Source: Torpedo marmorata
Lineage: Eukaryota
Direction of reading: 5' to 3'
Assembly (NCBI GenBank): GCA_977017645.1
Contig: OZ360240.1
Location: 34,224,001 to 34,288,000 of the forward strand
Length of the DNA stretch: 64,000 bases
In this document: piece after piece, positions 1,388-58,837 of the stretch
Numbering within the stretch: the first letter of the stretch is position 1
How the letters are laid out: each line of letters opens with the position of its first letter
The notes under the pieces: generated by a model
The model's input: the letters and a program-made list of their open reading frames with translations, nothing else
What the model was told of the DNA's origin: nothing
Database searches by the model: none
Program-made: the position numbers and the translations under genes

Positions 1388-1888
1388 ATTCAAGATTCAA
1401 GATTCATTTTATTGTCATTTAATAAAAACAGTGTCATATTACACAAAATTGTTTTTGTCTGCTGTAAGGCAGACAGATTCGCCATCAGCAGAAATTGCCT
1501 GAAGCGCCTCTTACAGTCAGTCAGAGAAAAAGAAGCAAAAAAGAGTTTCCCCAAGAGTCACCAAGTGTTTGTGGATTCACCACAGCACTCCCGCAGCCTC
1601 TGCAGCCACACAGAGTCCAGTCCAAACCATCGGCAACCCGAGCTCCAGATTCGAACCTCCGATACGATTGGGAACCCTTCAGCACTCTCTCGCATCCCAG
1701 TTCCGATACCTAGTACCCCTTCAGCCAGTTTCGAGCCAGTCGTCAGCAGTCTGCAGTCTGGCGCGAGTCCCTTGACTGCAGTCTCCAGCAGCCCACAGCC
1801 TGTGTGGGTTCCTCGCCTTGAGTAAATAACAGCCCACCGCCTGTGTGGTTCCTTCAGCAGCAGAACCTCTCACTGGTCTGCCGCCGTG
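1388..1888 (-). mobile_element. Repeat A copy 1: non-autonomous GC-rich retroelement, 5'-truncated
   Basis: Begins with the reverse complement of the (TTGAATC)n tail and GACAATAAA (attcaagattcaagattca..tttattgtc); aligns by eye with copies at 1886, 30404 and 60510. Confidence 0.9.
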
Positions 1889-2525
1889 ATTTTATTTAAA
1901 ATCCCGCGACCGCGGTGTCTGTGCCCAAGATGGCAGCGCTTCTGATCGGCAGCAGCCACGAGGGGTTGCAGACTCCAGGGGAGCGGAGGACTGGTGCAGG
2001 GCACCAGAAAACGGGGAGACTATCCCCCGTCTGAGAAGGAGAAGCAGAGGAGATGACCCACAGGACGGTGACCACGGCAGCGGACCAGCGAGGGGGCTCT
2101 GCGGCTGGAAGACCAATGCACGTGGCGGGCTGCTGGCAACTCGAGGCGAGGAACCCGCGGAGGCTGCGGACTGCTGGAGACTGGCTCGAACTGGCTGAAG
2201 GGGTACCAGGTATAGTAACCGGGATGCGAGGGGGTGCCGAAGGTGCTGAAGGGTTCCTGACAGTGTCGGAGTTCGGATCTGGAGCACGGGTTGCCAATGG
2301 TTTGGACTGGACTCTGTGTGGCTGCGGAAGCACTGGAGGCGAATCTACGGACACTGGGTGACTCTGGGGGGAAACTCTCTTTTGCTTCTCTTTCTCTGAC
2401 TGTAAGAGGCGCTTCAGGCAATTTCTGCCGATAGCGAATCTGTCTGCCTTACAGCAGGCAAAAGGAATTTCGTGTAATATGACACTGTTTTATTGCATGA
2501 CAATAAATTGAATCTTGAACCTTGA
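1886..2525 (+). mobile_element. Repeat A copy 2, 5'-truncated, head-to-head with copy 1
   Basis: Colinear with about 60667-61315; ends gacaataaattgaatcttgaaccttga. Confidence 0.9.
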
Positions 2526-10360: not shown

Positions 10361-10732
10361 GAACAACATCTTATTTTCTGTCTGGGCACTCTCCAGCCAG
10401 ATGGCATTAACATTGACTTTTCTGCTTTCCACTAAACCTGCTCGCCTTTTCCTTCCCCTCCCCCCTTACCTGTCCTTCCAGTTTTTTCCACACACCCAGC
10501 CATCCCTCCTCCCCCTCTTTGCTGCTGTCCCCTCCCTCCTTTCTCCACCTATCATCTCCTGCCTTTGCCACCCCCCTTCCCCCCCTCACTCTTTTGTTCG
10601 GACGCCTGCCGGCATTTTCTCATACTTTGATGAAGGGCTCAAGCCCGAAACGTCGGTTATGTATTTCTACCTTTGCTACATAAAAGACACTGTTTGACCT
10701 GCTGAGCTTCTCCAGCATTTGTGTTTTTTACT
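10361..10732 (+). mobile_element. Penelope-like element (PLE) 3' fragment with hammerhead motif
   Basis: Starts EQHLIFCLGTLQPDGINIDFSAF (PLE ORF C-terminus); 13-bp TSD TTCCTTCAGTCAG at 10348-10360 and 10733-10745; near-identical to 49550-49915. Confidence 0.85.
10621..10661 (+). ncRNA. Minimal type-I hammerhead ribozyme motif (U3 variant)
   Basis: CATACT-TTGATGA-A-GGGC(TCAA)GCCC-GAAA-CGTC-GGTTATG: core, stem II, palindromic ACGT stem III, bulged stem I; predicted cleavage after 10654. Confidence 0.65.
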
Positions 10733-12169
10733 TTCCTTCAGTCAGAAGTTCAACAAACAGAAAAGCAAAGGGGAATGCAAACTTTACTTTATTGTCACTC
10801 CAAACTATAATGAGATTAGCAGCTGAGCCTCTGAATAGTAGAGAGAGCAATGCTACTTTCACAAAGCAAAATATATCTTCCACAAGACTAAGACGAAGTA
10901 AGGCCATCTCAAATACAATTTACACCATTCAGGATTTCCATTGTTACAGGCAGAAGTATGCTATTAGTACTTCATGCACCACATCACTCACACATATATT
11001 CTGTGTTGAAATCATGTATTTGGCAGCAAATTGTCTATATAGGAAAATAAACATAATGTAGACACCAATTTGAGTCTAAGTTTGTAATTTAAAAATAAAG
11101 TTACGGAAATAACAATTCCTTTTGAAAGTTATTATGGACTTTATATCAATCTCAAATATTATTGCATTAGAAACTCATCTTTGCTTGACACCCTACCCTC
11201 CCCGCTGTTGGCCAAGTTCAAGGTTTTTGGGTTTAATTGTTACACATATAAATTTGGAAATGGAAACAGAATAAATGTGAGTAAACTGTGTTATGGACTA
11301 TGGCTGACCATTTGGACTGCGGACGGTCAGCAGGAAGAATGAAGTCTTTTGGGTACACACTGGGACCAGGTACTGAAAGAGTTAACTTGCCCAGGACTGG
11401 CTGTGCTCAGAGAGAGAGACACATAGAGAGAGAGACAGGCTGTGGAAAGATACTTTGTTGCACTTTTGCAAAAGCTGGTGCAAACCTCTGCTAAAAGCAT
11501 TCAGTTTGGAGTTGCAAAAGGCTGAAGCAACAATATCAGAAACAGGCTTGTGCTTTCCAGTGAGAAAGGCTTGGAGAATAGCACATGGCCTCCTGTATCA
11601 GCAAAATTCTGAGATAAAGCAACTTTTGTGGAGAACAGGCGTGAGATCAGCGAGACAGGCTGTGAGATCCAAGTACACGCCTCCATCAGTGATATACTGA
11701 TTTGGAACAGCAACCCTCGTGCACCTACCAAAAGGGAAAGCCATCGGAAGAAAAACAGGCCAAGCATTCAAAATCTTAAACAGTCATTGTCTCTCTCTCC
11801 AACGTTCATTAAGAAGTCCTTTGTGCCAGTGCGCAGAGCTGAATTTGGACCCTGAACATAGAGAGTGATTTTTGTGGACTGTATTTATGAGACTGACTTA
11901 TTTTTACGACTGACCTGGGGTTTTGGGGAAGGTTTTCTATTTTTTTTCCTTGAGGGTTGGGCACAGACTGTAATGGTCTGGGCTTAACACACACACTCAC
12001 ACACACACACACACACACTCACTCTTTAGATAAGAAGTGTTATAGACATTTATAGTGGGGTTGATTGTTGTGAAATTATATGTTTAATTGTCATTAATAA
12101 ATATAAATTTCAATTTTGCCCATTTTGCATTGCGTCTGCTGTTGTTGCTGGATTGAGTTTGTAACAAAT

Positions 12170-13270: not shown

Positions 13271-16200
13271 AGAAGTGTTTATAGACGTTGTTAGTGGGGT
13301 TGATTGTTGTGAAATTATATGTTTAATTTGTCGTTAATAAATATAAATTTCAATTTTGCCCCTTTTGCATTGCGTCTTCTGTCATTGCTTTTTTGAGTTT
13401 GTAACAACTGTGATATAGCAAGAAAATTACTCCATTGCACTTGAACTGCCTGTGGTTAATATTTTGCTCATCCAGTTGCTAGGAGAGCAGTGGTAACAAA
13501 TCCTTGAAATGATGGCTGATAGGCCACTCAAGTAAAGTAAACTTACTGATTGGCATTGCAGGGTTTACCACATATTGCAAGAATTGTTCTCTTTGTATCT
13601 TATGGCAGACAACTATAATATAGTTTAGGTTGAGTGCAGTCAAATATATCAAAGAAGGTGAATTCAGGGTCAATAATTTAAAATGAAAGTCAGTTCCGCA
13701 AGTTTTGCAATATGTAGAGATTACAAAATAATAGTGCTAAATAAAAATTAAACTTAGATTATACCAAAGTGTATATATGAATAAACATATTGGTTTTACC
13801 AAAAGAATAATATAATTCACTGTCCAATGAAAGTCCACTTTTGGGTGGTTCTGAGAGTGCTTGTAATAGCACCCTCTGTATTAAAGGAGGAGGGTGCTAT
13901 TACAAGGACCCTTCTTTAATAATTATGAAATTATTATTTGCACATTCACATGTATATGTGCAAAAAATACATATTTTCAATCTGTCCTTCCATAAACAGT
14001 TTGGCTTTAGAGTTGAGAACCAGCGGAAATAAACAGTTTGGCTTGAGAACCAGTGGAATAGCCTCTGGATAAGGACTTGGCTGTGGAGAAATTGCTTCAC
14101 TCAGGGTGTTATGAATTTTTGGAATTACTCCTGTAAATGCTCGATTAATGATAATGTTAAAATCTAAAATCAGTAGCTTCTTGGATACTTAAGGAACTGA
14201 GATCTATGGAGGGTGATATAGAGCTGAACTAGATCATATTCATGGTTCAAATGACCAAACTGATTATATTCTCTTCTTCTTGATATACTTCTTACCTGGG
14301 ACAGGCTCAGGAATTTATAGTTGTCTGCTTTTATACACATATCATAACCAAAACCACATACTGATGCAATTAATGAATATAGTGGTTGCCTTGTGGCCCT
14401 GCTGGCTGTCCCAGATCTTGTTTCTAAATAACTGTAAGAAATAGATTGCTGCATCAAAGTACTCTCCCCAGCATGGGGATTATGGACATATTTATACATC
14501 GTAAATAACGGTTTTGATTTTTCAGGAAAATGAAGAATATAATTCCCAAAAGAGCTGGTAAAAAAATCTCAGAATCTTCAGTCATAAAAATAAATTTGAT
14601 ATTTAGTCACGACTGCAAAGAACCACAGTCCTTTTCTATATTACAAGCAAGATCACTAGTTTTCCATTTTTATATGAAAATCAATAGGAAAACACAATAT
14701 AATCCTTAAAACCAGTGCAAATTCTCAAATCCTATGTAATACAAAAAATGGAACTTGACTTATTCAATTACTGTAAACCACCAGCCCTGATTATACAGTT
14801 AAAGAGTTAGTCGTACTGCAGCCAAGAAATTAATTAACTTCATTGTGCCAAAGCACAGGTTCTGTATTATGGGAATGTTGAACATATATGGATTATTAAT
14901 GTAATGGCTAGTTCCTACTGACACAAAGAAATGCCAGAATTTCCAGCTGCCAATTTACCCTGGCTTTTTTCATACTGCTCTCATTGTCGAAGGCAAAATG
15001 GCACATAATCGAAAGGAAACGATTGTGGACCTTCTGGGAGAAACTGCTGGCTGCGTGCAAGATCAGACTTGCTCAGTGAAGTGGTAGGGAGGCTTTTAAA
15101 CCCATTTGACCTGATATGATTGGAAAGAGGAAGTACTACATTCCACATTAATCAGCTACGCTGCAGTTTGTTTCAGATGTGAAAGGATAATATGGCAACA
15201 CAAGACACGTGGACATGTAAAATATCCCTCTGATCCCGACACAGAGCAAAGAAGCAAATATCCGCACGATGATACAAATGAAGTAGAAGTTACACAAAAA
15301 CAACAAGGACTGTGGGGTAAAATAGAAGGGAGTTGAAGAGCGTAAACAAGTGCAGGCTGAGACACATCTCTACCTCATCATCAAAATATCCCAAAGTGCT
15401 TCACTTCTAATTAATTGTTATGGACAACGTAAGCACATGCCTTTTAATTGCTCAGTATTGTGATGCCCTGCCAATGGAGGACATGGTGATGATCATTCAT
15501 GTGTAATCAAGGTGTTAAACCTGCATCCCAAGCATTGGAAGCAAGGGCATGTGTGCAATGACATTAGGTGAGTTCAAATGTGGGTGTGCTGCCTTTGTGG
15601 TTGTTACAGCCGGCCAGTTAGACAGTTGGCACTTAGCAACACTATTTCTTCAATGAAAGATGCATTTATAACTAATGAACGCAGACACAACTTAACAACA
15701 ATTAATGTTTGGGTGAATAGATATCGGGCCATCTTTTTTTTTGGAATATTTTATTTAAAATTTTTGATAATACATGTAATATTACCCCATCCCTTATCCC
15801 CCTCCCCCCAAGCCACCCCCTTCAAAGTAATGTATTTATATTGCAAATATATATGTATAAAAAAAAAGAAAAATAGAAAAAGGAAAGACATTTTTGGATT
15901 GCAAAGAGGAGCACCACCCAGGAGATATCTCAAAATATCATATACACACACTTAGAGGATGGTCTTACAGTTCTAGAGGCGTAAAAAAAACCATCTTTAC
16001 AAATTTAATCTCATTTTTTGGGTGTACGGACGCCATATTTGCAAAAAAGTAGAATATTTGTTCCTCAAATTATATGTGATTTTTTTCTAAAGGAATACAA
16101 CTTTGAATTTCCCCATGCCACCTTTGCATATCCAAGGATATATCGGATTTCCAAGTCACAGCAATACATTTCCTCACTACTGCTAAGGCTAATTTAACAA

Positions 16201-17157
16201 ATACCAATTGATAATTTGATAGTTTCAATTTAGGTCTTGCACCCTCAATATTTCCTAAAAGAGCTAAATCGGGTGTTTGTGGAAATACAATTCCTGTAAC
16301 TTGTTCTAAAAAATTTCGTATGTCTAGCCAAAATGTTTTTACCTTGGGGCAAGACCAAGTTGAATGTATAAAAGAACCTACATCTTCACCACATCTAAAA
16401 CATTGATCAGATAATTCTGATTTTATTCTATTTAACTTCTGTGGTGTCAGATATAATTGAAGCAAAAAATTATATTGAACTAATCTATATCTTACATTTA
16501 TAGTGTTCGTCATAGAATCTTTACATAAATTTTCCCATGTTTGTTGATTGATTGTGATATTTAAGTCTGTTTCCCATCTCTGTCCAGATCTATTTAACCC
16601 TTGTTTAGGAGCTCCAGCTTGTAATAGTTCATAAATCTTAGAAGTAATTTTTTTAACAATTCCTCTCCTAATCAAGAGCTCTACTTCATTGCAACTAGGT
16701 AAAGGCATGGTTGGTCCCAATTTGTCTCTCAAATATGCTTTTAATTGAAAAGAACAAAAAATAGTATTTTGTGGTATGGCATATTTGTTCCTCAACAGTA
16801 CAAATGACATTAATTGACCTCTTTCATTTAAAAAAAATTATTTAAAATTTTTAATCACACGATAGTACATGTTTATATTTAGTAATTCTCTCTCCATCAG
16901 ACCGACCGGTTCCCCCTTCCACATTTGTAATATACTTGACATCTCCTTAGAAAAGAAAGAAAAACAAAAAATAAAAAGAAAATAAAAAAAACACTATATA
17001 ATATATAAAAAAAAATACTGGTATATTTATACCAGTACTACCACCCTCTATTGTTCGGGAAGTGGCCCTCGCCACTAAGGTGACGTGTGATTAGGTACGG
17101 AGAAGACAAAAAGTCCACCCCCCCAACAGATTTTACATAATATTTGTTATCATTTCT

Positions 17158-20100
17158 TCATCCAACTTCTTCCAGATCTCTATTAACTTGATCCTCATTT
17201 ATTTTGACCCCCTCTTCTTGTCCTGAAGCTCTTGATGAAAAGAAATCACGAGTCGGTTCCGTAGTAACTTGAGGTTGTCCCATCAGTTCCTGATCTTTCT
17301 TTAATTTCAAAAGTGAATTTGCATACTTCAAAGCTTCTTGATGATCAGTAAAAAAGGATGACTGATTCTCTCCAGACTGTACCTTCAATGTCGCAGGATA
17401 TCTGAATGAAAATTTATATCCTTTACTCCAAAAAATTGCTTTCACTGGGTTAAATTCTTTTCATTTTTTAATTATTGCTGCACTTAGATCAGCATAAAAA
17501 AATACCCTATTTTTATTAATTATTAATGGAATCTGGTTCATTCTAGCATTTTGAACAGCTAATTTCAATATCTTCTCTTTATCCTGGTAACAGAGACATC
17601 TGATTAACACTGAACGTGGCCTTTGTCCAGGATTCGGTTTCTTTCTGCTATCTCTATGAGCTCTATCTAATTCAAGTCCATTCGTAAAGTGTTCAATACC
17701 CAAAATTTCTGGAATCCAATCTTTTTTTTTTTTTTAATATTTTATTTTAATTTTTTAAATTTTTCACAGTAATACAACATACGTATTATACATTATTAAT
17801 TCTAGTACATAGAAAAACATAATTTGTATTACAGTGTATCTAACCCCTCTCATAACCCACCCTCTATAAAGTTGCCCACCCTCCACCCTTCCCCTCCCTT
17901 AATTCCCTCCCAATCTAAAAACTAAAAGAAAAAATAGAAAAGAAGGTATTAATATTTCTTATCCAATATAACAAAATGGATCGCTGCTGGGTCCACGGCT
18001 CGACGCGTGGTATTCAACAGTATTTATTCTTTAAGTTTGAGAGAGTCAATAGGGTCCAGGATGTAGAGCAACACATTCAAATATTCATACCTAATGATTG
18101 GATATATGGACGCCAAATTTTCAAAAATATCCCATATTTGTTTCTCATATTATATGTTATTCTTTCCAAAGGAATACAGCTCCGCATCTCTGAATTCCAC
18201 CTATCTATACTTAAACTTGTATCTGATTTCCAAGTTACTGCTATACACTTCCTTGCTACTGCTAAAGCAATTTTTACAAATTTCAATTGACATGTAGATA
18301 ACTTCAACTTTGGTCTGGTTCCTTCCACATTTCCTAATAGGAATAAATCAGGATTCTGTGGAAATGTAACACCTGTAATTTGCTGTAACCGATTCCCTAA
18401 CTCTATCCAAAAACCTTTAACTTTAGAACATGACCATGTTGAATGTAGAAAAGTTCCCTCCACTTCACCACATCTAAAACACCTATTTGATAACGTAGAT
18501 TTTATCTTATTCAATTTTTGTGGTGTAAGGTATAATTGATGTAAAAAATTATATTGTACTAATCTACATCTTACATTAATAGTATTAGTCATACTGTCTT
18601 GACATAAATCCGACCATCTTTTTTCATCAATTGTAACATTAAGATCTTGCTCCCATCTTTGTTTAGACTTATGAAGTCCTTGTTTTAAAGCTCCCCTTTG
18701 TAACAAAGAATACATTATAGAAGTAAATTTTTTAATATTTCCTTTCCTAATAAGAATTTCTACCTCACTACAATCTTGTAACAACATATCTGGACCTAGT
18801 TTTTCTCTTAAATAACCTTTTAATTGAAAATAACAAAAAAGAGTGTTATTGGGTATTCCATATTTATCCCGTAGTTGTACAAACGACATCAGCTGGTTCC
18901 CTTCATAACAATCTTCTATCTTCTTTATTCCTTTCTGTGACCATATGTTTAAAAATTGATTATCTTTTGTAAATGGTATAAGATTATTCTGTATCAAAGG
19001 CATTTTGGGTGATATGTTTCCTTTCATCCCTATCTCATCATTAATCTTGTTCCAGGCATTAATCAAATGTTTTAACAACGGCGTTTCTTTAACACCTATC
19101 AATAATTTTGAATTCCATTTATATATAAATTCTTCTGGTATCTTTTCTCCTATTTCGCCAAGCTCTATTCCAACCCATGCAGGTCTTACTTCACTTTCAA
19201 AAAAGGAAGTAACAAATCTCATTTGTGCCACTCGATAATAATTCTTAAAATTAGGGAGTTGTAAACCTCCCAGTTGATATTTCCATGTTAAACGTTCCAT
19301 CGAAACTCTTGACATTTTACCTTTCCAAAGAAACTTTTGCACCTGTTTATTTAAATCCTGAAAAAAAGCCTGTGGTAATAAAATAGGTATAGTTTGATAC
19401 AGGTACTGTAGGGAATCCAATCTTGAAAAAAATCAGTTATGTTCACCCCTTCAAAATCTTCGGGCAATCCCACGATTTTAACATTATTTCTCCGACTCTG
19501 ATTTTCCAATACATCTATTTTTTGTAAAAGTTAATTTCTTTGTTGCTCCCAACCTGTAAATGAGTCTTCCACTTTATCTACTCTATCTTTATAATACACC
19601 ATTTCTTCATAGTGCTCTTTAACATCATTTTCAATTTTCTGGACTTTCGATATTACTTTATCCACAGTATTTGTATGTTTTTTCATATCTTGTTTCATGC
19701 CTCTCATTTCTTCCTCAATTCCATTAAATCTAAATTCCATGCGTTGATTCATATTTGACACTTGTTTTGTTAAATTATCCATAGCTTTAATCAAAATCTC
19801 TGATATTTCTTGTTTAGCTTGAGGTAATTGAGCCTCCTCTGCACTTAATTCCTCATCCTCTCCCTCCATTTCTTCTATTTCTTCCTCCATTTTTTCATCT
19901 TTCTCTCTCCTTTTGTCCTCTGACTCCGTTGATAATGAGAAATCCTGTCCAACATCATACTGAAATGATTGAAGGACTCTTCTTTTGCCGTCAGCCTTAG
20001 CTGACAGCTCCCGTTCTTTATTGCGCATGCGCGATCGTTCACTCTCGGGTTGTAGTTCCTTCGTCTTCCTTCGAGCGCCAGCGCCATCTTCCCCATCTCC

Positions 20101-20190
20101 CCGGGAGGACGGCACTGGCGCTGCAGTTACCTTAACCGTCCTTGTCCGCATCTTCCTGGGAGGGAGAGAAACTTGATCCCGAGGCTCCAT
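17158..20190 (-). pseudogene. L1 ORF1p (Transposase_22-like; coiled coil, RRM, CTD), ~443 codons reconstructed from 20190-19425 plus 17723-17158
   Basis: IDVLENQSRRNNVKIVGLPE, LDRAHR, PRSVLIR, FFYADLS, FRYPATLKV; one frame with two in-frame stops (19531, 17461) once the nested L1 and one TSD copy are removed. Confidence 0.9.
17724..19411 (-). mobile_element. L1 #3: 5'-truncated L1 nested inside the ORF1-only element
   Basis: Intact poly(A); uninterrupted ORF2 C-terminal frame 18077-19411 (GGLQLPNFKNYY..CFRC..HSTWSC); 13-bp TSD GGAATCCAATCTT at 17711-17723 and 19412-19424. Confidence 0.95.
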
Positions 20191-21558
20191 CGCTAAGGTA
20201 GGCCTATCTTACTCTTGAATTAAACTTTCCTGAAGCAATACTTTCTTTGACTTTTCCTCCTTCCCTTTTCTTGTAGTCATTCTTCAATCTTAACTTTTTT
20301 TAATAACTAAATAAAGTTTTTTTTAAACAGGTTTTAATTAATTCTGTAGGGAGAGGTGTATTTCCACGTCTCCAACCTATGCCATCACACCACATTAATT
20401 GACCTCTTTCATAACAATCTTCAAGATTTACAATACCATTACGGTACCAAATATTCAAAAACTGGTTATCTCTTGAAAAAGCTATAAATGGATTTTGATT
20501 TAATGGCATTTTAGGCGATATAAATCTTTTTATTCCAATTTCATCTTTTTTTTATTCCAAATATTGAGTAAATGTTTCAATAATGGTGTATCTTTACCAG
20601 CAGTTATCAATTTCGGTTCCCATTTATATATAAAATCTTCTGCTATCTTTTCTGCTATCTTATTCAGTTCTATATTTACCCACGCTTTTTTTTATCTTCA
20701 AAAAAAAGAAGCAAGAAATCTCATTTGAGCGGCTCGATAATCATTTTTAAAAATTATTGACCTCTTAAATAAGCCTTTAAAGCTTCCCAAATAATACATT
20801 TATTATTAATTGAATTTGAATATATTGAGTATATAGTCTTCATAAAGATATCTCAGGATCAGTCAAATATATTAATAATTGCCAGGCTAATACCTTATGT
20901 GACCTCTCACCTAATTCATAATATCTTTGTTTCGTTCTTACTATTGCTTTCTCAGTTATATACATTTGTAATGTATTATATTGCGTGCCATCTTGAAGAT
21001 AGTATAAATGATCTAAATGTTGACGAGTTTTGAAGTCTGTCTTTTATTTTACAGAATTGAATGTACCCATTGTTCTGTGGTAAATTGAACTGAACATATC
21101 CATTTCCCGGAAAATGTATTTAACTTGATTGTTCCCACTCCACTGTGTGATAGAGGATAATTGCATCCATTCCGTGGCAATGTAAGTTCTCCTTTACTCA
21201 CTTCTGTCACTGCTGTGCCGTAATTTAGGTGTTTTGGCCGCAGTGACTTGTCAACATTCACAGCTCTGTAATCCAAAGCATGTCATGATTTTAGAGCCAA
21301 GTTAAAACACAGGTATATGGTTAAATTTCCCATGAGAGTCACAAGATTTTGAAAGCCAATCATAGGTCCTGCGATGAATTGGATGAGTTGTTGGTAGTGC
21401 CTTGGTTTCAAAAAAAATGGGAACTTCAGCTGTGATTGCTGGCGAACAATGGTTCTACACTAATTAGTCCGATCATGCACAGGAAAGATATCCATTCAAA
21501 AAGGGTTGACCTGCTGAGCACTGTTTTACTGCAAGTGCACTAATCTGGGTATACTTGC

Positions 21559-21734
21559 TTATAATGTAATAAGTACAATAAAATGGCAGCACCATACTTA
21601 CATGGTGTATCCTCATGAAGCTAGCGGCCACTCTGAATGATAAGTTTATAATGTAATAAGTACAATAAAATGGCAGCACCATACTTACATGGTGTATCCT
21701 CATGAAGCTAGCGGCCACTCTGAATGATAAGTTT
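21559..21734. repeat. Perfect 87-bp tandem duplication
   Basis: Unit ttataatgtaataagtac..ctctgaatgataagt starts at 21559 and 21646. Confidence 0.95.
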
Positions 21735-21831
21735 GGGACTCACTTCACCTTCTTTATCTCCTGTTACTTTCATGCAATGGATCTTTAGCAAGTTCCTAAC
21801 CCATCTTTAGAAATCTTTACTATACCTTGTT

Positions 21832-22070
21832 TTTAGACATACAGCACGGTAACAGGCCCTTCCGGCACATGAGCCCGTGCCACCCAATTACACTCAATTG
21901 ACCTACAAACCTTGTACGTTTTGAAGGGTGGGAGGAAATCAAAGCATCCGAAGGAAACCCACGCAGACACGGCGAGGAGATACCAACTCCTTACAGACAG
22001 TGCCGGATTTGAACCCGGGTCGATGGTGATGTATCACCGTTGCGCTAACCGCTACGCTAATCGTGCCACC
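21832..22070 (-). mobile_element. tRNA-derived V-SINE (HE1-like)
   Basis: Head GGTGGCACGATTAGCGTAGCGGTTAGCG, B-box GGTTCAAATCC, V-domain GTGTCTGCGTGGGTTTCC, CR1-like tail GGGCCTGTTACCGTGCTGTATGTCTAAA. Confidence 0.9.
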
Positions 22071-22353
22071 TTTATAAAAATTATACCTTATAAAGACTAT
22101 CGTTCAAGGTCAAGTATTACCACCACTTTCAAAATTTAGAGTTCAGGAAATGTGCCTGGCACCTTTTAAGACCAAATGATAGCAGGACTGCAGAGGTACT
22201 GGTTGTAGGATCATTCAGCTCTGTCCATTGCATTGTTTAGTTCTACATTGTAATTTCACTGGGTTTTTAGGTACGACTTGTACTGCTTCTGACATGTCTT
22301 TCTGCTTGCCGCATGGAACTGAGGTTGAACCCCTGCCTTGATGGTAACAATTT

Positions 22354-25416: not shown

Positions 25417-25642
25417 TTAAAAAATTTTAAATTTTAGACAGGCCCTTTCGGACCCAATTACACTTAAATGACCTACATCCACGGTATGTTTTTGAACGGT
25501 GGGAGTAAACCAGAGCACCCGGAGGAAACCCACGCAGACACAGGGAGAATGTACAAACTCCTTACCGGCAGCGCTGGATTCGAACCCTGATCGCTGGCGC
25601 TGTAACAGCATTGCGCTAACCGCTACGCTAACTGTGCCACCC
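25417..25642 (-). mobile_element. V-SINE (HE1-like)
   Basis: Same family as 21832-22070, with small 3' deletions. Confidence 0.9.
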
Positions 25643-27332
25643 TTAGTAAGCAAATTGCAATTTTGCTTACTAACCTAGTAAGTTAGTAAGCAAATAAAAA
25701 ATAAAAAAATATATATATATACACATAATGTCAGTGGCATAATCATGGAAAGTAATAGAGAGATACAGCTCAGAAGCAGGACCTCCATACCAACCATCAA
25801 GGACCTACAGTATATACACTGAACCTACATTAATCCCATGTCTTATTCTTCCCACATTCCCAACAACTCCCCCCCCCCCAATTCTACCACTCACCTATAT
25901 AAAGGGGCCAATCTACAGTGGCGATCATGCCAATCATAATACCTGAGCATCAACAATTCTGTCACAATAAACACAACAAATATATCTGCAGAGTCTTTCC
26001 AGCAGGATGGATTATATATTGTGGTTTATGCTCTCTGTTTGAGCCCTCTACCCGATTCTACAGGGTCAACATCCCTAAGGTATATTGGCCCAATCCGAGT
26101 TCCTGTTGAAAAACTCCATTTGACTTCTTGGAAACTTATTAAGCTTCACTTCACATTGATGTATTTAATTTGAAGCCTGTGTGAACTCAAAGTTTATCTT
26201 ACACCAGCTTCATTTAATTTAGATAGCATTAAACTTTGACAAAAACCATGTGGGTTCACAGGCCTATAAATAAATATCAGTCAGAAAGCACTTGCTTGAA
26301 TTATGGAAGCTGCAAATCGACATCTTCACTCCCGAGATAATTTAAACAAACACACACAGCTCCCTATGGACCCTCATCTCCAACTTGACCCTAAATTGAC
26401 TCCCCAATGCTAATTGATTGATTAATAATTTGCAAGTGCAATTTAGACAAATGTTATGCTCCAAAGGGAGAATACAATGATTCTAAAACAAAGTAATTGA
26501 TTGACTTTGACTTTTTTTCTCTGTTACATCATTTACAAAGCATATGAGTTACCTCAGAGTGACATGTCTCTCCTGAACTCAAGACATGCAACAGGTGATT
26601 AGTGGCTCAAAGCCATTAATTAGTCACGTGTGGCCACTGTGTATTCATAAACAAACTCAATCAGACGCTGTGGTTTTATCTACAAAAGAAAAGATAACAA
26701 GCCACCCTTCTAAAATGATAATTTTAATGATATGGAATGAAAAGTAGCCATGTGTCACTGTATTGTAGTTTAAATGTTCAACAACGTTGTCTACACTCTT
26801 GCTTGTAAAATTGGTGGTTGATAACTGTGCAACCCCACTAAATACACTCTTAAGCCTTAAATTTTGTGTAATATTACATCTGTTTTATTTCACAATAAAA
26901 TAATCTTCAAATATAGCACAACAGTTTCAAACTTATAAAAGAGACACCACAGGTTATGACATGATACAATCCAGCCATAAGCGGTGAGGAAGCTAATTTG
27001 TCCCTCTCTTGCTCCGTTGGGCACATTTACATCACGTAATACAAAATGTGATTAAGTGATAGCACATTCATTCTTATCCTTACATCTGAATTGTGCTTTT
27101 TATCGTGTCCAATGTGTAAGGGAGAAAATATTTTATGTAGACCTCCCTTTGACTTATTGAGTGATGGTCAACTACCCATTGGAATGAAATGGATGAAGAA
27201 GGAACTCCCAAATTACAATGTAAAATGTCTCGATGTAGCAGAATAAAATAAATTCAGATTGCTCAATGCCCTTCATATGGGATTAATGTTTGTCTGATAG
27301 TTTGAAAAGGATATGAATTTGAGTCACCCATA

Positions 27333-27607
27333 AGATTTAGATTTTAAATTTAGATTTAGATTTAGACATATAGCACGGTAAGAGGCCCTTTCGACCCACG
27401 AGCCCATGCCGCCCAATTACATACAATCGACCTACAACCCCGCTAAGTTTTGAATGGTGGGAGGAAACCGGAGAATGCGGAGGAAACCCATGCAGACACG
27501 GGGAGAACGTTCAAACTCCTTACTAGACAACGTGAGATTTGAACCCCGATCGCGGTCGCTGGTGCTATAACAGCATTGCACTAACCGCTACACTGACCGA
27601 GCAACCC
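27333..27607 (-). mobile_element. V-SINE (HE1-like) with (TCTAAA)n tail
   Basis: Full head, V-domain and tail; gatttagatttagatttagacat tandem tail. Confidence 0.9.
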
Positions 27608-29449
27608 TAACTTCATTATCAAGTTCAAGAAAGATTACAGAAACAATTCACACTTTATCAAAGTGAATGATGATTAATAAATACGCTTTTAATTGTGATC
27701 TTAACTATTTAAAATGCATGTTGTTCATGGCAATGAATTAAATAGTGGAACAAAAAATGTTCATTTTCCACAAACCACTGCAACACAGTTCACTATCTCA
27801 TTAGGATCAGATATAAAACCTTTAAGCAGTATGCTGTGTGGAGGAGGTTGAATTTATTGTCACCAGATTTGGAACTATTCAGACACTAACCGAATCATTG
27901 TGCTCAAGAGAAAAATAAAAATAAACGAGTTAATAACAATATGAAAAAGGAATTGAGGTAAATCAGTGGTATTACATTCTGCGGTGCATCACAATCACAA
28001 CACTTTCACAGAAACGTCTATTGGGGGAAAATGTACCCAGAGAGTTCAAGTGAAATCAGCGATTTATTCAATTTTCACTCACATAATTAAGGTGAAGGTT
28101 CTTTTCTGGTTTATTACTTGAATACCTTAAATTTTAATTTCTCCTATGTCAGACGTTTGGGTTTGGCAAGTTGTACTGCTGAGCAAGGTGAAACACATGA
28201 ATATCTCCAAGGTTTGCTTAATAAAATGCAATAGAATTTCTTTTTTAGCAAGGATTGGTATTTTGTCTCTTACATTACCTTTGAAAGAAAATGAAAGAGA
28301 TTCTTTGGCAACAAAATACCATTGTTCTGTCAAATCGGCACCATCCAATGTTTATGATTATCCTAACATGGATTTCCCCCTTTAAATGTAAAATCATTAA
28401 AAAAAACAGCCTGCATAAATTGTGTATATTTTGCTTAAATTCAGTGTGCAACATTTCATTTTCAATGGGGTATGGATGTTAAGAAGAATGAATAAATGTT
28501 TAAAGCAAGAAGATGAAGAGGCCATGTTGAGGAGGTAATGCAATGAGATTAATTCTGGGGAAAGAACTGACACAAATATAACAGGCTGAATGGCTTTTAT
28601 TCTCTGCTGTAAATCTCCTATTTCTAGAAACACCATATTGTCAATTGCTTGCATTTAGACCAATAGGTTGTTTAGAGCTGTCCAACTTGTCCTTCCTTCC
28701 ACTAAAAGTTATATGATTGCTTAAATTCTTAGCAAGCTGAATCCTAATTTCAGCACATTTCTACCACTTTCAGAGGGAAGAATATTTTCATGGAAAGGCA
28801 GTTAAACTCAGATTATGATACTAAGTAGTTGAGTTTGTCTTATTCCATGCTCGTGCTGAGGACCTGCATCCAAATTCAAGGATTCAAACTCCAGAATGAA
28901 TTCAGTGGAACTGCTTCATTTCATCACGGGGAACTACTGCAAGAATATTAAATAAATGGTACATGTTTTAACTAGTGCTCATTTCAGTCCAGTTTCCCCT
29001 TTTTATCCCCCACACAGAATCAAAAGTAATAATTGAACTGAATATGAAAGCATCTGCATGTACTGTACATTAATACCGGTAGTTTCCTCAGGTGCACAAT
29101 CTTTTGTAAAAATAATATACTGCTCTGCCATTTTTGTTTTACCAAAATCTAGAACATGACACGGTATGCCGATTATTGGAGAGTGAGGGATTGTTCAAAG
29201 ATTTATTTCAGTGTCCTATTATGATTAAACAAAAAGACGATGAAACTCCTCTATTGCATTTTTATATTCTCCACCAATTTTGAAAGACAAAGAGCCAGGC
29301 AAGGGATTTATCTGAAAAAGTATTTGTTGATGTGCAACATGGGTGATAATATTGAGAAAAAGTCTCAGATTCTGCAGTGGAGACAGAAATGGTAGGAAAT
29401 GCCTACCTCATAAGACTCTGAAAATAATCACAAAAGAAAAAAAAAATAC

Positions 29450-29857: not shown

Positions 29858-31120
29858 ATTGCTTTTTTCTGAGAAGACTGAAGCAGGCAAGGCTACCGGC
29901 CACCATCATGTACAGGAGCTCTATCGAGAGCGTCCTGGCCGGCTGCATCACAGTGTGGTACGGTTGCTGCAGAGAAATGGATCGGAGGTCAATCCACAGT
30001 ACCTTAAGAGTGGCAGAGAGGATCACTGGAGTCTCCCTCCCCACCATCGAGGTGATCTACCGGGATCGTTGCCTGAAGAGGGCTCGCAAAATCGTTGAGG
30101 ACCCCTTCCACCCCGCACACAGCATCTTTCAGCTGCTCCCGTTGGGAAAGAGATACAAGAGTATCAGAGCCAGCACCACTATGCTGAGAAACAGCTTCTT
30201 CCCATGGACAGTGAGAATGCTGAATGACCAAAGGAAATGCTCACACTAATCATCCGAGACTTTCATATTTACAAAACTATATTTATTTATTTTTTCTGAG
30301 TACTTGTCCTGCATATGTATTGTTTGTTTGTGTGTATGTGAGTCTGTGTGTTTTGCAACGAGGACCGGAGAACGCTATTTTGTTGGGTTGTACTTGTGCA
30401 ATCAGATTCAAGATTCAATTTATTGTCATAGTAATAAAACAGTGTCATATTCCATGAAATTTCTTTTTGCCTGCTGCAAGGCAGACAGATTCGCCACCGG
30501 CAGAAATTGCCTAAGCGCCTCTTACATTCCTTACAGTCAGAGAAAGAGAAGCAAAAGAGAGTCCCCCCAGAGTCACCGAGTGTCCATAGATTCACCTCCA
30601 GCGCTTGTGCAGCCTCCGCAGCCACACAGAGTCCAGTCCAAACCATTGGCAACCCGAGCTCCAGATCCGAACCTCCAACATGGTCAGGGCGCCCTCGGCA
30701 CCCCCTCGCATCCCAGTTCCGATACCTGGTACTCCTCCAGCCAGTTCGCAGCCCGGCGTGAGTCCCCCGACAGCAGTCTCCAGCAGCCCACAGCCTCCGC
30801 GGGTTCCTCACCTCGAGTCGCCAGCAGCCCGCCGCATGAACTGGTCCTTCAGCCTCAGAGCCCCTCACTGGTCCGTCGCCGTGGTCACCGTCCCGTGGGT
30901 CGTCTCCTCCGCTTCTCCTTCTCAGACGGGTGGGGGGGGGTGATCTTCCTGTCCTCTGGTGCCCTGTGCCAGTCCTCCGCTTCCCCGGAGTCTGCAGCCC
31001 CTCGTGGCTGCTGCCGGTTAAAAGGCACTGCCACCTTGGGCGCAGACCCCGCGGTCGTGGGATCTCAAAGCCCATGCGGAGCCGACGGCAGTCGACTGGA
31101 TGACGATAAACTTGACTTGA
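29858..31120 (+). mobile_element. Rex/Babar LINE 3' fragment (29858-30407, tail resumes at 31099-31120)
   Basis: FLRRLK..YRSSIESVLAGCITVWYG..HPAHSIFQLLP.GKRY..RNSFFP; terminal gatgacgataaacttgacttga is displaced by Repeat A. Confidence 0.9.
30404..31100 (-). mobile_element. Repeat A copy 3, inserted antisense into the Rex 3' terminus
   Basis: Tail agattcaagattcaatttattgtc at 30404; homology to copy 4 ends at gtcgactgga (31100). Confidence 0.9.
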
Positions 31121-31737: not shown

Positions 31738-31965
31738 AAAGTAAATCACGAAAATCTGTAGACACCGTGGTTGAAGTAAAAACACCTATCATCTCCTGCC
31801 TTAGCGACCCCATTCCCCCCCCCCACTCTTTTGTTCGGACGCCTGCCGGCATTTTCTCATACTTTGACGAACGGCTCAAGCCCGAAACGTCAGTTATATA
31901 TTTCTACCTTTGCTACATAAAGGACACTGTTTGACCTGCTGAGCTTCTCCAGCATTTGTGTTTTT
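31738..31965 (+). mobile_element. PLE short element with inverted terminal segment at its 5' side
   Basis: 31739-31786 is the reverse complement of the terminus seen at 49904-49951; hammerhead motif at about 31860-31895; imperfect ~14-bp TSD acactgcccttcca / acactgctctttca. Confidence 0.85.
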
Positions 31966-37364: not shown

Positions 37365-39060
37365 GCAAGACTCATCTTTCCAAGGGAGTGATGGGACTGC
37401 TGTGTGCTCTGCTTCACGGAGACATGACTCACACCTTCCTCTCCTGACAGTGCAGTACAATTGGAGGGCTTCTCAATCCACTGGATAGGCCGCATTGTGT
37501 CCTCAAGAACAGCAAGAGGTGGAGGCGTCTGCTTTCTCATCAACACCGCCTGGTGCTCAGACGTGGTGGTTCTTGGGAGCCTCTGCAGCTAGAGCGGGAA
37601 GGCCTTACTGTGAAGTGCTGCCCCTACTACTTGCTGTGAGACCGACTGCAGTCTACATCTCACCTCTGGTGACCGTGAAGCTAGTGCACCTCCAACAACA
37701 GCCTCAGAACAAAGTATCGCGAGCCTGCATTCCTATTAGCTGGTGACTTCAACAAAGCTAAATTCAAGAGTTCTCTCTTTGAATTCCATCAGCATGTCTC
37801 CTGCCCCACCAGAGGCCTCAACACCCATGACCACTACCACAGAGCCATAAAGAATAGCTATCATTCCATCCCAATCCAACTCTGTGGCAAGACAATCATC
37901 AGGCTGAGGCACTTCTACTTACTTACAAGCAGAAGCTGAGGATGGAAGGCCTGGGGTGGGGGGTAGGGGGGTGAAAGTCATTCAATGATTTTAATTTAAT
38001 TTTAATTTAGACATAAGAGCACGGTATCAGGCCCTTTCAGCCCACAAGCTCGTGCCGCCCAATTACACCCAATTGACCTACAACCCCGGTACATTTTGAA
38101 CAGTTGGAGGAAACCGGAGCACCTGGAGGAAACCCAAGCAGACGCGGGGAGAACGTACAAATTCCTTACAGAGAGCACCAGATTTGAACCTGGGTCGCTG
38201 GCGCTGTAATAGCGTTGCGCTAACCACTACGCTAACTGTGCAGCCCTGAGGATAAAGATGATATCCTACGCGGCTCCTTCAAGTTGGTAAGTTGGTCTGT
38301 ATTCCAGTGTGTGGAAGATTGCGTGACTCGGAGGACAGTACTGGTTTTCACAAATTGGAAGCGCTAGATGAACCGCAACAAAGGCCAGGCCTGAGATCCG
38401 GCCCTATACAAGAAATCTAAATCAGATCTTCACAAGGCAATCAAAGAAGCCAAGAGGCAGTCCCGCAACAGGCTGGGGTCCTGCGAGAATATCACGGAGA
38501 CGTGGTAAGGATGGCAGGGCATGCATGCCATCGTGGAGCACCAAGTAAAGGCATGCAGCATGGCATGCAACTATGCAACACTGCGCCAAGTGTTTGTATT
38601 TGAGAGCCAATGAGGCAGCGACATCCATCTCAACTACTTGTGCTCCTGCACCCACAATCAGGCTAGTCTTCCAGAGGAAAATGACTGGCTCAAATGGACG
38701 TGTGATGACAACCCGGGCAGATCAACTGGTGGGTGCATTCACAGATACTTTCAATCTCTCCCCTTATTCCTACCTGTTTCAAGAAAGTTACTGTTATAAC
38801 AGTACTGAAGAAAAGCACAAGAACTGGCCCAAGTGAGAACCAACGCCACCATCTTGAAGTGCTTTGAGAGGCTAGTCATGGCTCACACCAACTCACTTTA
38901 GAGTTGGTCTTGACCTATTTCAATTCACCTACCATTCATACAGGTCCATGGCGGACACTATCTCCCTGTCCCTTCATTTGGCCCGGAAACACCTAGACAC
39001 AAGGATACCTGTGTCAGACTACTGCTTCTCAACTGCAGCTCCAAGACCACATTCCCCAGC
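37365..39060 (+). mobile_element. Degraded Rex/Babar LINE, AP endonuclease to early RT
   Basis: DCCVLCFTET*LTP..LEGFSIH..RGGGVCFLINTAWC; AGDFNKA; ILKCFERLVMAH; many stops and frameshifts. Confidence 0.85.
37988..38246 (-). mobile_element. V-SINE (HE1-like) nested in the Rex remnant
   Basis: Full head, V-domain and tail. Confidence 0.9.
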
Positions 39061-39748: not shown

Positions 39749-39986
39749 GGGAGACACGGTTAGCACAACATGATTACAGCGCCAGCGACCCAGGTTCGAA
39801 TCCAGCGCTGTCTGTAAGGAGTTTGTACGTTCTCCCAGTGTCTGTGTGGGTTTCCTCTGGGTGCTTTGGTTTTCTCTGACCCTTCAAAAACGTATGGGGG
39901 TTGTAGGTTAATTGGGGTATTTGGGGGGGTGGGGCTCACAGGCTCATGGGCCGGAAGGGCCTGTTACTGTGCTGTATGTCTACATT
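39749..39986 (+). mobile_element. V-SINE (HE1-like)
   Basis: B-box GGTTCGAATCC, V-domain, tail gggcctgttactgtgctgtatgtcta. Confidence 0.9.
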
Positions 39987-41147
39987 AAAAAAATAAGGAA
40001 TGCTTCAGATAATAGATTCAATGTTCCAAACTTCAATCGGCAAAACACATCTGTTACCACATTGATGTTCCATGTCGACTTGAAAAAAACAATTTGCTGA
40101 ACTGATAGGGGTGAAATTTCTGTAATTGATGCTCCTATTTATTATTTGTTTTTGGTATTAATATAAATGTCATTAAACACCTATCATTCTTGCCTTTGAT
40201 GGAAAAGTACAAAATCTTTCATACCTTTATCTTAAAACAACTGTAAGCAAGCACACGACCTGCGAGATCCTTTCTCAAGCGATTTAAATTTCCTCACCTC
40301 CTCCCAGAATGGGTTTAATTTAAATGCTCCAAACAAATTGAAGCTCAGAAATGTTTGCTTATTGGGTATATGTGTATATATTAAAAATTTTAGTCTTATA
40401 TCCCATGATAAAATGTTCTAACGCCTCATTGGTAAAAGCTGGTTGTTAGGTTTAGTTCCAGATTGAAACAAAGACAATAATGAAAGATACATTGCATGTA
40501 TTTGTGATTCCAAACCCAAGATCCATATACAGATACCACAGTAACATTAGTAGACAGCAAAATGTCATTCCCCAGCTATTGAAACAGATACAGGCAGTAT
40601 TGCTTCTGTGAGTTATTCCATTGCATTGCTGCATTGCTTCTATAAAATTTTGCATGTAATACACTATTAAATACGGCAGGCAGAGTTAACAATTCAGATC
40701 CAGAATGTAGTACATCAAAAAGAATCAACATCACCAAAATGAGTGGGGTTGCCGATGTTACTCAATAAATTGTTCTTAAAAACAAAGTTATTAAGGTTCA
40801 AGAGAATTACTCGTGCTGCCCGTGTGAAGTGCTGGCCATGGTTTAGAATAAATCAATAATTCCTCTGCATTAATGTAAGAGATAATGGCTCCTGTCTGAT
40901 AAATCTCACTCTACGTTCATTGTGATACCCTGATCCTAATCAGCATGAGGCTCAATTACTGACATCATTGATTTTGAGGCTCAAGGATTCATAGCATCAT
41001 GCTGACAAAGGATGGAAAACCCAAAGCATTTCAGACATGTAATCTTTCTCTTTAAATCTGTGCACTAACCCTTGTCCCATTCCGACTTATAGGCAATCCT
41101 AGTGAGAGATTTTAAAAACCAAACATGGTGTCCAGGAAGGTCAGATA

Positions 41148-41250
41148 AGTAAAAAACACAAATGCTGGAGAAGCTCAGCAGGTCAAACAGTGTCCTTTAT
41201 GTAGCAAAGGTAGAAATACATAACCAACGTTTCGGGCTTGAGCCCTTCAT
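41148..41250 (-). mobile_element. PLE terminal fragment, truncated inside the hammerhead core
   Basis: Reverse complement of about 10630-10732. Confidence 0.85.
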
Positions 41251-54339: not shown

Positions 54340-55430
54340 ACTGGACAGTCTCCTCTACATCGGAGAGACTGGGCGCGGACTGGGAGATCGCTTTGTTGAG
54401 CTCCGGTTTCTGTTAAACCCCACCCCCATCTTTTCCCCCTGTCTCCTTTCCTCTAGTTCTGACTCTCTATCTCTCCCCTTTTCCCTCTGTCTCCTTTCAC
54501 GGAGCCAAAATGAATTCTCACCTTTCCTCTTATCATATCCAATTAACACCTTTTGTCTGTTGGTCTGAACTCCTCCCCCTCCTATTCTTCCCCCTTTCTC
54601 TCCCCAGGTTTTATTCAGGTGCCTGCCTGCTTTTACTTATATCTTGAAGAAGAGTTCAGGCTTAGATGTAAGAATGAAGTAGGTTCTTTTGTTCATTCTA
54701 CATGGTTATGCCCAAAGATTTTCAAGATTTTTTGGTTGAAAGTTAAGAATTTTTTAGATAGAGTTTTTAATGTTATGTTTCCAATGGATCCTATGTTATT
54801 TTTATTTGGAGATATTAGAAAATTTAGTATTAGGAATAGATTGAATATGTATCAGGTAGAATTTTTGCAAATTGTTTTAGCTGTCTCAAAAAAATGTATT
54901 GCTATTACTTGGAAATCAGATTTAGATTTAAGTTTAGATAGGTGGCATGCAGAACTTCGTTCATGTATTCCTTTGGAAAAGATTACTTATAATTTACGCA
55001 ATAAATATCATTCTTTTTTAAAAATTTGGAGCCCATATATGAGAGTTATGGGTTTAAGGATTTGAAATCTCTAGAAATCAGGTCTATTGGCGAGTTTAAC
55101 CTCCAGAATAAAATTAGTTTTTACATGGTTCTCTCCTCGCTATTAATCTTTTTTTTTCTTTTTCTTCTTTTTTTTTAAACTATTTTTAGAATAGTGGGGT
55201 TTGGGGGGGTGGTTAGGGAAGGGTGGGAGGGTGCGGGGGGAGGAAATTTATATCACTTGTATTTTGGAAACTATATATTTTGATTTATGTATTGTGTGAT
55301 TTAAAAATTTAAAATAATAAAAAAAAAATAAAAAAAAGGGTTCAGGCCCGAAATGTCGGTAATATATCGTTACCTCCGATGAACGCTGCGAGACAGGCTG
55401 AGTTCCTCCAACATTTCTGTGTATTTTGAC
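54340..55430 (+). mobile_element. Internally deleted PLE (GIY-YIG core plus terminus) interrupted by an L1
   Basis: LLYIGETGRGLGDRFVE at about 54350-54400; terminus ttgaagaag..cccgaaatgtcggtaatatatc split at 54661. Confidence 0.85.
54662..55335 (+). mobile_element. L1 3' fragment with poly(A)
   Basis: RC..GSFVHSTWLC..KKCIAITWKS..WSPY; TSD AAG(A/G)GTTCAGGC at 54650-54661 and 55336-55347. Confidence 0.9.
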
Positions 55431-57800: not shown

Positions 57801-58837
57801 CAATAGATCACGAGTATACACCAGAAATTGATCCGGGATGAGGCTGAGGAAGAAACAATACAAGATTTGAGGGAAAAGAGGAAGACATTGCAATGTCTGT
57901 GTACGTGTTATGTTTGTATGACAAATGTCGATTTGACCCATTAAAAAGAGTGGAATTAACAAGATAAAAATAGAATTAACAAGATGCATGTTTTAGAAGT
58001 TCTCCATTCGTCAAAGTGATTCATTATATTCCTGGCACTACCTGCAGTTAGAATAAGAATTTGTACATAAATTCCAGGAATTTTTTCAATCTCCCCTCCA
58101 GAATATTTTCTATAATGCTGATAACTGTTCATTCTGCATCTTGCTCTTTCTCCGAACTTGAGAAATTTATTGCTTATGCTTCCATCTTCTATTCACTCCT
58201 CACTTCCAACAATGACTCCTCTCTTCCTTTTGTCATTCCTCTCTCTAACTATGTTTCTGTAGATACTATTATAAACCAAATGACAACCACTATCTAAAGT
58301 ATGTTTCCATTTTGTTTCCAACTATCTTCTCCATTAAATCTACTCAGATGACTTATCTCCTGCACTGGAGTCTCTGAATTCACCTTTATTTTCTTCTCCA
58401 ATATTGCCTATCTCATTTCTCAAATCTCTGGCCTGACCCCAGCTGTCTCATTTACTGCAGAACTCTAGAAATTCCACCTCACCGGCCCCTGCAGTTTCGG
58501 CCTTCACTGGACCAACTTATGACATCACTGCTACCCATGAGATAAATACGCACCAAGAACATATTGCTTTCTGTAGCGACTCTTTGCCTCTTACTTCTTT
58601 CACTCTAGTTTTTAAATATAGAGGAAATAAAACCTATCCGTTTAGTACCACTCAAATCCCTAAATATTTCTTTGTGAGAAATTGCTAGTGCAAATCATGC
58701 ACTTCTTCTAATTCAGTATGTTACACTTACTCAGAGTGTGGACTCTGGTATCATTAGGGGGAAACCAAATACAGTTTAGTGACTAATTGTTGAATATCTC
58801 CATTTTATCTGTAAATATGATCAGCTCGTCTTTTTTT

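What the first reader, a model, noticed from the sequence alone, without database searches (positions are those of the whole stretch)
16828..20391. Full-length ORF1-only 'half-L1' (HAL1-like) retroelement in a probable elasmobranch genome
Seen: a perfect 21-bp TSD bounds an element which, after excising nested L1 #3, is 1863 bp: ~200-nt 5' UTR, one ~443-codon ORF1 frame with only two nonsense codons and no frameshift, then ~330 nt ending GTGATTAAAAATTTTAAATAA, like the termini of the true L1s here (15740-15770, 55297-55319). No ORF2 lies between the TSDs, and the target is L1-endonuclease-like (TTTCAT|AA). Known: HAL1 elements encode only ORF1 and are mobilised in trans; I know them mainly from mammals and cannot confirm whether one is described in cartilaginous fish. 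Inference: an independently evolved ORF1-retaining parasite of L1. Caveats: the poly(A) is poor, and a single prematurely polyadenylated or later-deleted L1 is the alternative.
Basis: partly seen in the sequence, partly recalled or inferred. Interest (0 to 1): 0.75.

Follow-up and report, generated by a model that had tools for sequence, protein, structure and literature searches.

The report
Half-L1 retroelement in a ray genome
A decayed 1.9-kb jumping-gene insertion, in what is likely a ray genome, keeps the first LINE-1 gene and a LINE-1-like tail but has no copying-enzyme gene, so it is likely one copy of a parasitic "half-L1" family of a kind I found described only in mammals, though its copy number is untested.

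Summary
A perfect 21-bp target-site duplication bounds 1,863 bp of element (after removing a nested L1) inside an older L1's ORF2. It holds an L1 head, a frameshift-free L1 ORF1 and a 330-nt tail, with no ORF2 trace. One correction: ORF1 likely starts 90 nt earlier (473 codons, three stops, 111-nt 5' UTR). The ORF1 groups with ray L1 ORF1s. The tail looks like an L1 3' UTR: its end matches another L1's terminus in this window at 26 of 29 columns (0 of 10,000 shuffles reach the score), and it has the same T-rich then G-rich layout. This favours loss of ORF2 by internal deletion over premature polyadenylation, but no ray inter-ORF spacer was available as a control. The feature that defines a HAL1 family, many dispersed copies with this structure, could not be tested: no genome is held and no second copy was found. 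Verdict: works like HAL1; probably (0.6) a member of an independently arisen ray family; a one-off rearranged insertion (0.2) or a transcript cut short in the spacer (0.15) remain open. Known kind, apparently new lineage.

The parts
20392..20412 (+). 21-bp target-site duplication, copy at the element's 5' side (host L1 ORF2 sequence)
   Evidence: 21 of 21 identical to 16807-16827
20281..20391 (-). 5' UTR, about 111 nt; begins GG-TGTGATGGC and holds an AGACGTG motif about 21 nt in, resembling L1 5' termini; probably 5'-complete
   Evidence: resemblance to motifs described in PMC5381506 section 9, judged by eye, not scored
19425..20280 (-). ORF1, 5' part (codons 1-285): basic N-terminus, acidic tract, coiled coil, start of RRM; stops at codon 24 (20211) and codon 250 (19533); CpG-rich start (CpG o/e 0.87 in 19950-20391)
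   Evidence: coiled-coil-type Pfam hits all below cut-off
17724..19424 (-). Nested younger 5'-truncated L1 (ORF2 residues ~816-end, 444 codons without a stop, 3' UTR, poly(A)) with one copy of its 13-bp TSD; not part of the element
17158..17723 (-). ORF1, 3' part (codons 286-473): RRM, CTD and an acidic ~45-residue C-terminal extension shared with P0002; stop at codon 373 (17463); terminal TGA 17160-17158
   Evidence: direct match to human L1 ORF1p 2ldy E 7.8e-5
16828..17157 (-). 330-nt non-coding tail: 10-bp perfect hairpin (17037-17016), T tract, purine/G-rich tract, L1-type terminus (16864-16837), ATTAAA 28 nt from the end, T8, then only AA
16807..16827 (+). 21-bp target-site duplication, copy at the element's 3' side; nick site TTTCAT|AA
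15728..20994 (-). Host: older 5'-truncated L1 into whose ORF2 the element inserted; bounded by an 8-bp repeat (15728-15735 / 20987-20994), likely its TSD
55290..55318 (+). 3' terminus of a separate truncated L1 (54664-55338); best non-self match to the element's terminus, used as comparator
   Evidence: 26 of 29 columns identical

Best explanation
This is a decayed, TSD-bounded 1,863-bp insertion made of an L1-like head, a full-length L1 ORF1 and an L1-like tail with no ORF2, and it is likely one copy of a HAL1-like family that would have borrowed ORF2 protein from full-length L1s. Inferred working: an ancestral ray L1 lost ORF2 by an internal deletion that kept both ends. The short element was transcribed from its own 5' end and polyadenylated after the ATTAAA in its tail. 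Its ORF1 protein (coiled coil, RRM, CTD) packaged its own RNA in cis. ORF2 protein from an autonomous L1 nicked TTTCAT|AA and reverse-transcribed it in trans, leaving the 21-bp duplication. Shown by the nesting: host L1 first, then this element, then the younger L1. This copy is now dead (three stops and an insertion).
For: Shown: TSD, open host frame across the empty site, 1,863-bp length. ORF1 is L1-type and sits in a 100/100 clade with ray ORF1s. No ORF2 trace. The terminal 60 nt match the L1 terminus at 55290-55318 at 26 of 29 columns (0 of 10,000 shuffles, under both shuffle schemes) and the host L1 terminus (p 0.009 and 0.004). In a scan of the whole window with the terminal 47 nt, the best non-self hits are those two L1 ends. 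The T-then-G layout counted from the 3' end is reached by 5 of 2,548 window segments: three are the reference L1 ends, one is the element, one is unrelated. Inference: two breakpoints that spare all of ORF1 and leave no ORF2 codon are unlikely by accident. All 4 other L1 pieces in the window are 5'-truncated, while this one seems 5'-complete, as expected of a short template. A family member is far likelier than a unique event to turn up in a given 64-kb window.
Against: Only one copy seen: none elsewhere in the window, no protein relative closer than about 60%, no relative in three contig collections. These collections hold little fish DNA, so the blanks are weak. Zebrafish inter-ORF spacers are 311-730 nt and T-rich too (PMC5381506), and no ray spacer was available as a control. 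Upstream of the terminus, sequence homology to 3' UTRs beyond composition was not shown (block-shuffle p 0.11, 0.11, 0.82, 0.73), though true 3' UTRs fail among themselves as well (p 0.05-0.91). Poly(A) is only AA, there is no AATAAA at the end, and the target is non-canonical. No significant rate difference of ORF1 against its sister (13 vs 7 changes, p 0.26). The host L1's scrambled 5' end shows that one-off template jumps happen in this genome.
Confidence: 0.6

Rival explanations
1. A one-off rearranged L1 insertion: the reverse transcriptase began at the 3' UTR of a full-length L1 RNA and jumped to the end of ORF1 (or a spliced RNA was copied, or ORF2 was deleted after insertion). No family exists.
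For: Explains the L1-type terminus equally well. The host L1's 5' end is a non-collinear mosaic of ORF2 scraps (residues 343-378, ~700-716, 276-295, then 870 onward), so such jumps occur here. Only one copy seen.
Against: Both breakpoints must fall in non-coding DNA with no ORF2 codon left, and copying must then run to the 5' end; inference says this is rare, and a unique event is unlikely to be met in one window.
Confidence: 0.2
2. A 3'-truncated L1: a transcript of an autonomous L1 was polyadenylated early inside its inter-ORF spacer and retrotransposed; the tail is spacer, not 3' UTR.
For: Fish spacers have this length and T-rich repeats (PMC5381506 passages). 3'-truncation by premature polyadenylation is a described route (PMC4859970 passages). 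ATTAAA lies 28 nt from the end. The poly(A) is poor.
Against: The terminus matches real L1 3' ends at the terminal position. No ORF2 start remnant could be shown in the tail (P 0.06-0.17, and another ATG scores better).
Confidence: 0.15
3. A processed copy of a domesticated ORF1-derived host gene (in the manner of L1TD1), not of a selfish element.
For: Ray ORF1 sequences are exonised into host gene models (P0001, P0003, P0005, P0159). ORF1-only content fits.
Against: Both ends resemble L1 termini; no close orthologous protein in 1.84 billion representatives (best 60%).
Confidence: 0.04

Closest known systems
HAL1 (half-L1) of mammals (Smit 1999; Bao and Jurka 2010, not held and not seen; described in passages of PMC5753468, PMC3627910, PMC13756887)
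   Same: L1-derived, ORF1 only, no ORF2, TSD-flanked, would need ORF2p in trans.
   Different: Host is likely a ray; ORF1 belongs to the ray L1 clade, so any family arose independently; ORF1 is long (473 codons); short fish-type 5' UTR; family status unproven.
ORF1-present bipartite non-autonomous LINEs: HeT-A (Jockey clade), Ag-Sponge (CR1 clade), HAL1 (L1 clade) (PMC5786205 section 23)
   Same: 5' part plus 3' part of a LINE with ORF1 kept and ORF2 lost by internal deletion.
   Different: The deletion junction could not be mapped because the parent element was not available; no telomere role as in HeT-A.
Autonomous ray L1s (ORF1 proteins from Narcine bancroftii, Mobula hypostoma, Hemitrygon akajei, Hypanus sabinus; ORF2 proteins P0151-P0153)
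   Same: ORF1 core 39-59% identical; shared N-terminal motif; shared 3' terminus with L1s in the window.
   Different: No ORF2; C-terminal acidic extension seen only in the closest relative P0002.
3'-truncated L1 insertions from premature polyadenylation (PMC4859970 passages)
   Same: 5'-complete, ORF1 only, TSD.
   Different: Those end inside the element; this one ends in a sequence matching true L1 termini.

Membership tests
HAL1-type element | Encodes an L1-clade ORF1p (coiled coil, RRM, CTD) | tested here: met
   Direct match to human ORF1p E 7.8e-5; profile with relatives E 2.8e-16; 100/100 clade with ray ORF1s. Pfam alone did not detect it.
HAL1-type element | No ORF2 between the element's ends | tested here: met
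   23 ORF2 queries, best E 0.012, none of the best 8 hits in the tail; all ORF2 matches belong to host or nested L1.
HAL1-type element | Inserted by L1 machinery (TSD, endonuclease-type site, poly(A)) | tested here: inconclusive
   TSD perfect; site TTTCAT|AA only partly canonical and poly(A) reduced to AA.
HAL1-type element | Multi-copy family with the same structure and 3' end | not testable with these tools
   No genome held; no second copy in the window; contig collections gave no relative.
HAL1-type element | ORF1 coding capacity kept by selection after loss of ORF2 | not testable with these tools
   Needs copies. Core is conserved (13 of 113 conserved columns changed against 7 in P0002), but this could predate ORF2 loss.
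HAL1-type element | ORF1 lineage separate from autonomous L1 families | tested here: inconclusive
   End branch 0.51 against 0.21 for its sister; rate test p 0.26; sampling of ray ORF1s is thin.
Bipartite non-autonomous LINE | Retains the 3' end of the parent LINE | tested here: met
   Terminal 26 of 29 match and 3' UTR-like layout; caveat: no ray spacer control.
Bipartite non-autonomous LINE | Retains the 5' end of the parent LINE | tested here: inconclusive
   Motif resemblance to vertebrate L1 5' termini by eye; no ray L1 5' end available.
Mammalian HAL1 families (by descent) | ORF1 derived from a mammalian L1 | tested here: not met
   ORF1 lies inside the ray clade; human ORF1p is only a distant match.

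The most novel reading that the evidence does not exclude
Rays carry their own, independently evolved half-L1 family, the first outside mammals among vertebrates that my searches could find. It was made by clean excision of ORF2 and kept the native L1 3' terminus in spite of a poor poly(A), because ray L1 ORF2p recognises that shared terminal motif (stringent 3' recognition) and not poly(A) alone as mammalian L1 does.
Probability: 0.3. Interest if true: 0.62.

Novelty: new member of a known kind. Interest (0 to 1): 0.42.

Why it matters
If it is a family, ORF1-keeping parasites of L1 are not a mammalian peculiarity but a recurrent outcome in vertebrates, about 400+ million years apart (date from my own knowledge). 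That supports the idea that ORF1p is needed in cis while ORF2p can be taken in trans (PMC3627910 passage). The terminal motif shared by divergent ray L1s and this element gives a direct test of whether non-mammalian vertebrate L1s recognise their 3' end, which is unusual for the L1 clade (PMC3747384 passages). If it is a single rearranged copy, it is an ordinary L1 fossil.

Tried and rejected
Copy number was not measured: no genome is held and no read or contig pile-up was obtained. Contig collections gave no relative of the element: metagenomes (0 of 153 candidate stretches; 1 of 89, a distant decayed ORF1, L001, not useful), viral contigs (0 of 33; 0 of 21), prokaryote genomes (0 of 12). My idea that the tail holds the first codons of ORF2 (ATG at 16897) was tested against 9 ray-like ORF2 starts and rejected. 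Faster ORF1 evolution: not significant. Tail folding: z -1.87, 4 of 100 shuffles as good. Rfam: nothing in 15500-17200, two chance hits far below threshold in 19400-21100. No tRNA head. The segment near 11121 with a similar composition profile is not evidently an L1 end. Earlier findings of this scan: nothing by sequence, genome or relatives. Literature searches for HAL1 or ORF1-only L1 in sharks, rays or fish (listings only) showed no such report; HAL1 does not occur in the manta-ray genome preprint or PMC13343379. Repbase and Dfam could not be searched and Bao and Jurka 2010 was not seen, so an existing entry is not excluded.
Full report
Observation. The stretch 16828-20391 is bounded by a perfect 21-bp direct repeat (16807-16827, 20392-20412) that extends on neither side; about 4e-5 such pairs are expected in 7 kb. 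With the insert removed, the flanking L1 ORF2 reads open for 293 codons. A second, 5'-truncated L1 with a 13-bp duplication sits inside; without it the element is 1,863 bp. The order of events follows from the nesting: host L1, then the element, then the nested L1, whose 444 ORF2 codons have no stop.

The reading frame. An in-frame ATG at 20280 gives 473 codons with three stops and no frameshift. The longer start is likelier: the N-terminal motif that follows the first stop lies 25-30 residues inside a Mobula ORF1-derived model. The C-terminal half matches human L1 ORF1p directly (E 7.8e-5) and through a profile with relatives (E 2.8e-16); Pfam did not detect it. Among 1.84 billion representatives, 698 match at E 0.001 or better; the best is an unnamed protein at 60%, and the named ones among the next best are from Hemitrygon, Narcine and Mobula. 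In a tree of 29 ORF1 cores it falls in a 100/100 clade of 13 that holds all the named ray proteins, and in a 99/96 subclade with P0002 and Narcine proteins. The host is thus likely a ray; this rests on protein similarity only. Three stops imply about 5% decay (95% range 1-15%).

No ORF2. All ORF2 matches in the region belong to the host or the nested L1. A sensitive search of the element's own parts with 23 ORF2 proteins gave 38 weak hits, best E 0.012, none of the best 8 in the tail.

What the tail is. This is the point on which the readings differ. Zebrafish L1 spacers are 311-730 nt and T-rich (PMC5381506, passages), so length and T content alone decide nothing. Two tests go further. First, the last 60 nt align with the terminus of a separate L1 at 55290-55318 at 26 of 29 columns; 0 of 10,000 shuffles reach that score under either shuffle scheme, and the host L1 terminus matches too (p 0.009 and 0.004). 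Scanning both strands of the window with the terminal 47 nt, those two L1 ends are the best non-self hits. Second, counted from the 3' end, the tail has a G peak at 60-90 nt and a T peak at 120-180 nt, like the L1 3' UTRs; 5 of 2,548 window segments reach its profile correlation: three reference ends, the element, and one unrelated segment. Against: upstream of the terminus no base-level homology beyond composition was found, though the true 3' UTRs show none among themselves either; the 'host 3' UTR' used included about 70 nt of ORF2 end; the nested L1's UTR was compared without its terminus; and no ray spacer was available. My idea of an ORF2-start remnant in the tail failed. I put about 0.8 on the tail ending in a genuine L1 3' end.

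Insertion marks. The duplication points to target-primed reverse transcription (established L1 biology). The site TTTCAT|AA is only partly canonical, while the host and nested L1s both sit at ATCTT|GA. The tail has ATTAAA 28 nt from the end, no terminal AATAAA, then T8 and only AA.

Family or single event. Not settled. There is no genome, no second copy in the window, and no relative in contig collections that hold little fish DNA. For a family (inference): the loss spares all of ORF1 and leaves no ORF2 codon; the element seems 5'-complete while all 4 other L1 pieces in the window are truncated; and a family member is much likelier than a unique event to be met in one window. For a single event: the host L1's 5' end is a non-collinear mosaic of ORF2 scraps, so template jumps occur here. 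ORF1 shows no significant acceleration (13 vs 7, p 0.26).

Mechanism. Most likely (0.6): an ORF2-less derivative of a ray L1, transcribed from its own 5' end, coated in cis by its ORF1p and copied in trans by ORF2p of autonomous L1s. Shown: anatomy, insertion, nesting, ORF1 identity, absence of ORF2, terminal match. Inferred: transcription, cis action of ORF1p, trans mobilisation, family status. Rivals: one-off rearranged insertion 0.2, early polyadenylation in the spacer 0.15, copy of a domesticated gene 0.04.

Comparison with what is known. It works like HAL1, described as an ORF1-only L1 derivative that arose several times in mammals (PMC5753468, passages; PMC13756887, passages; PMC8535693, passages) with long-kept ORF1 coding capacity in guinea pig (PMC3627910, passages). 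It fits the class of ORF1-present bipartite LINEs with HeT-A and Ag-Sponge (PMC5786205, section 23). It is not a descendant of mammalian HAL1. Membership of the type is met on structure and untested on copy number and selection. Bao and Jurka 2010 was not seen. Searches (listings) and term look-ups in 10.1101/050880, PMC5203782, PMC13343379 and 10.64898/2026.10.27.761883 (passages) showed no HAL1-type element in cartilaginous or other fish. Repbase and Dfam were not searchable. Supplements were not read; those of PMC5381506 (spacer sequences) may bear on the tail question. Unchecked notes of this scan report ORF1-only elements in fungi, a protist and mammals, which suggests the kind is common and lowers the surprise.

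Verdict. New member of a known kind; interest 0.42.

Noticed in passing
window 20757-20994 (- strand): The host L1's 5' end is a non-collinear mosaic of short ORF2 pieces (residues 343-378, about 700-716, 276-295, then 870 onward), inside an 8-bp TSD-like repeat; looks like repeated template jumps during one insertion.
   Followed up: partly
window 15728-15735 / 20987-20994 and 17711-17723 / 19412-19424: Two different L1s both inserted at ATCTT|GA, hinting at a target preference of ray L1 endonucleases that differs from TTTT|AA; n = 2.
   Followed up: no
window 20025-20034: A GCGCATGCGC palindrome inside the CpG-rich start of ORF1 (an NRF1-type site, recalled); lizard L1 5' ends carry a similar motif. 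May be a downstream promoter element.
   Followed up: no
window 17016-17037: Perfect 10-bp hairpin in the tail just before the T tract; resembles a terminator in layout; function unknown.
   Followed up: no
window 15728-20994: Three L1-family insertions nested in one another, all on the same strand.
   Followed up: yes
proteins P0001, P0003, P0154, P0155, P0005, P0159: Ray L1 ORF1 appears fused into RefSeq host gene models (ADAT1, TRIM-like, transcriptional adapter 1, mitochondrial elongation factor); the TRIM-ORF1 fusion is modelled in both Hemitrygon and Hypanus at over 90% identity and might be a real conserved chimera.
   Followed up: no
window 1390-2525, 30404-31069, 60666-61315: Three or more copies of a GC-rich repeat at 79-87% identity, with an inverted arrangement at 1390-2525; no Pfam hit.
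   Followed up: no
window 21827-22074, 25452-25646, 27340-27608, 37987-38250, 39757-39992, 58835-59083: About six copies of a ~240-bp interspersed repeat at 77-83% identity, SINE-like in size; ARAGORN finds no tRNA.
   Followed up: no
window 10365-10733, 31783-31965, 41147-41250, 49548-49916: A younger repeat family (92-98% identity) with shared 3' parts.
   Followed up: no
window 21559-21734: Perfect 87-bp tandem duplication next to the host L1.
   Followed up: no
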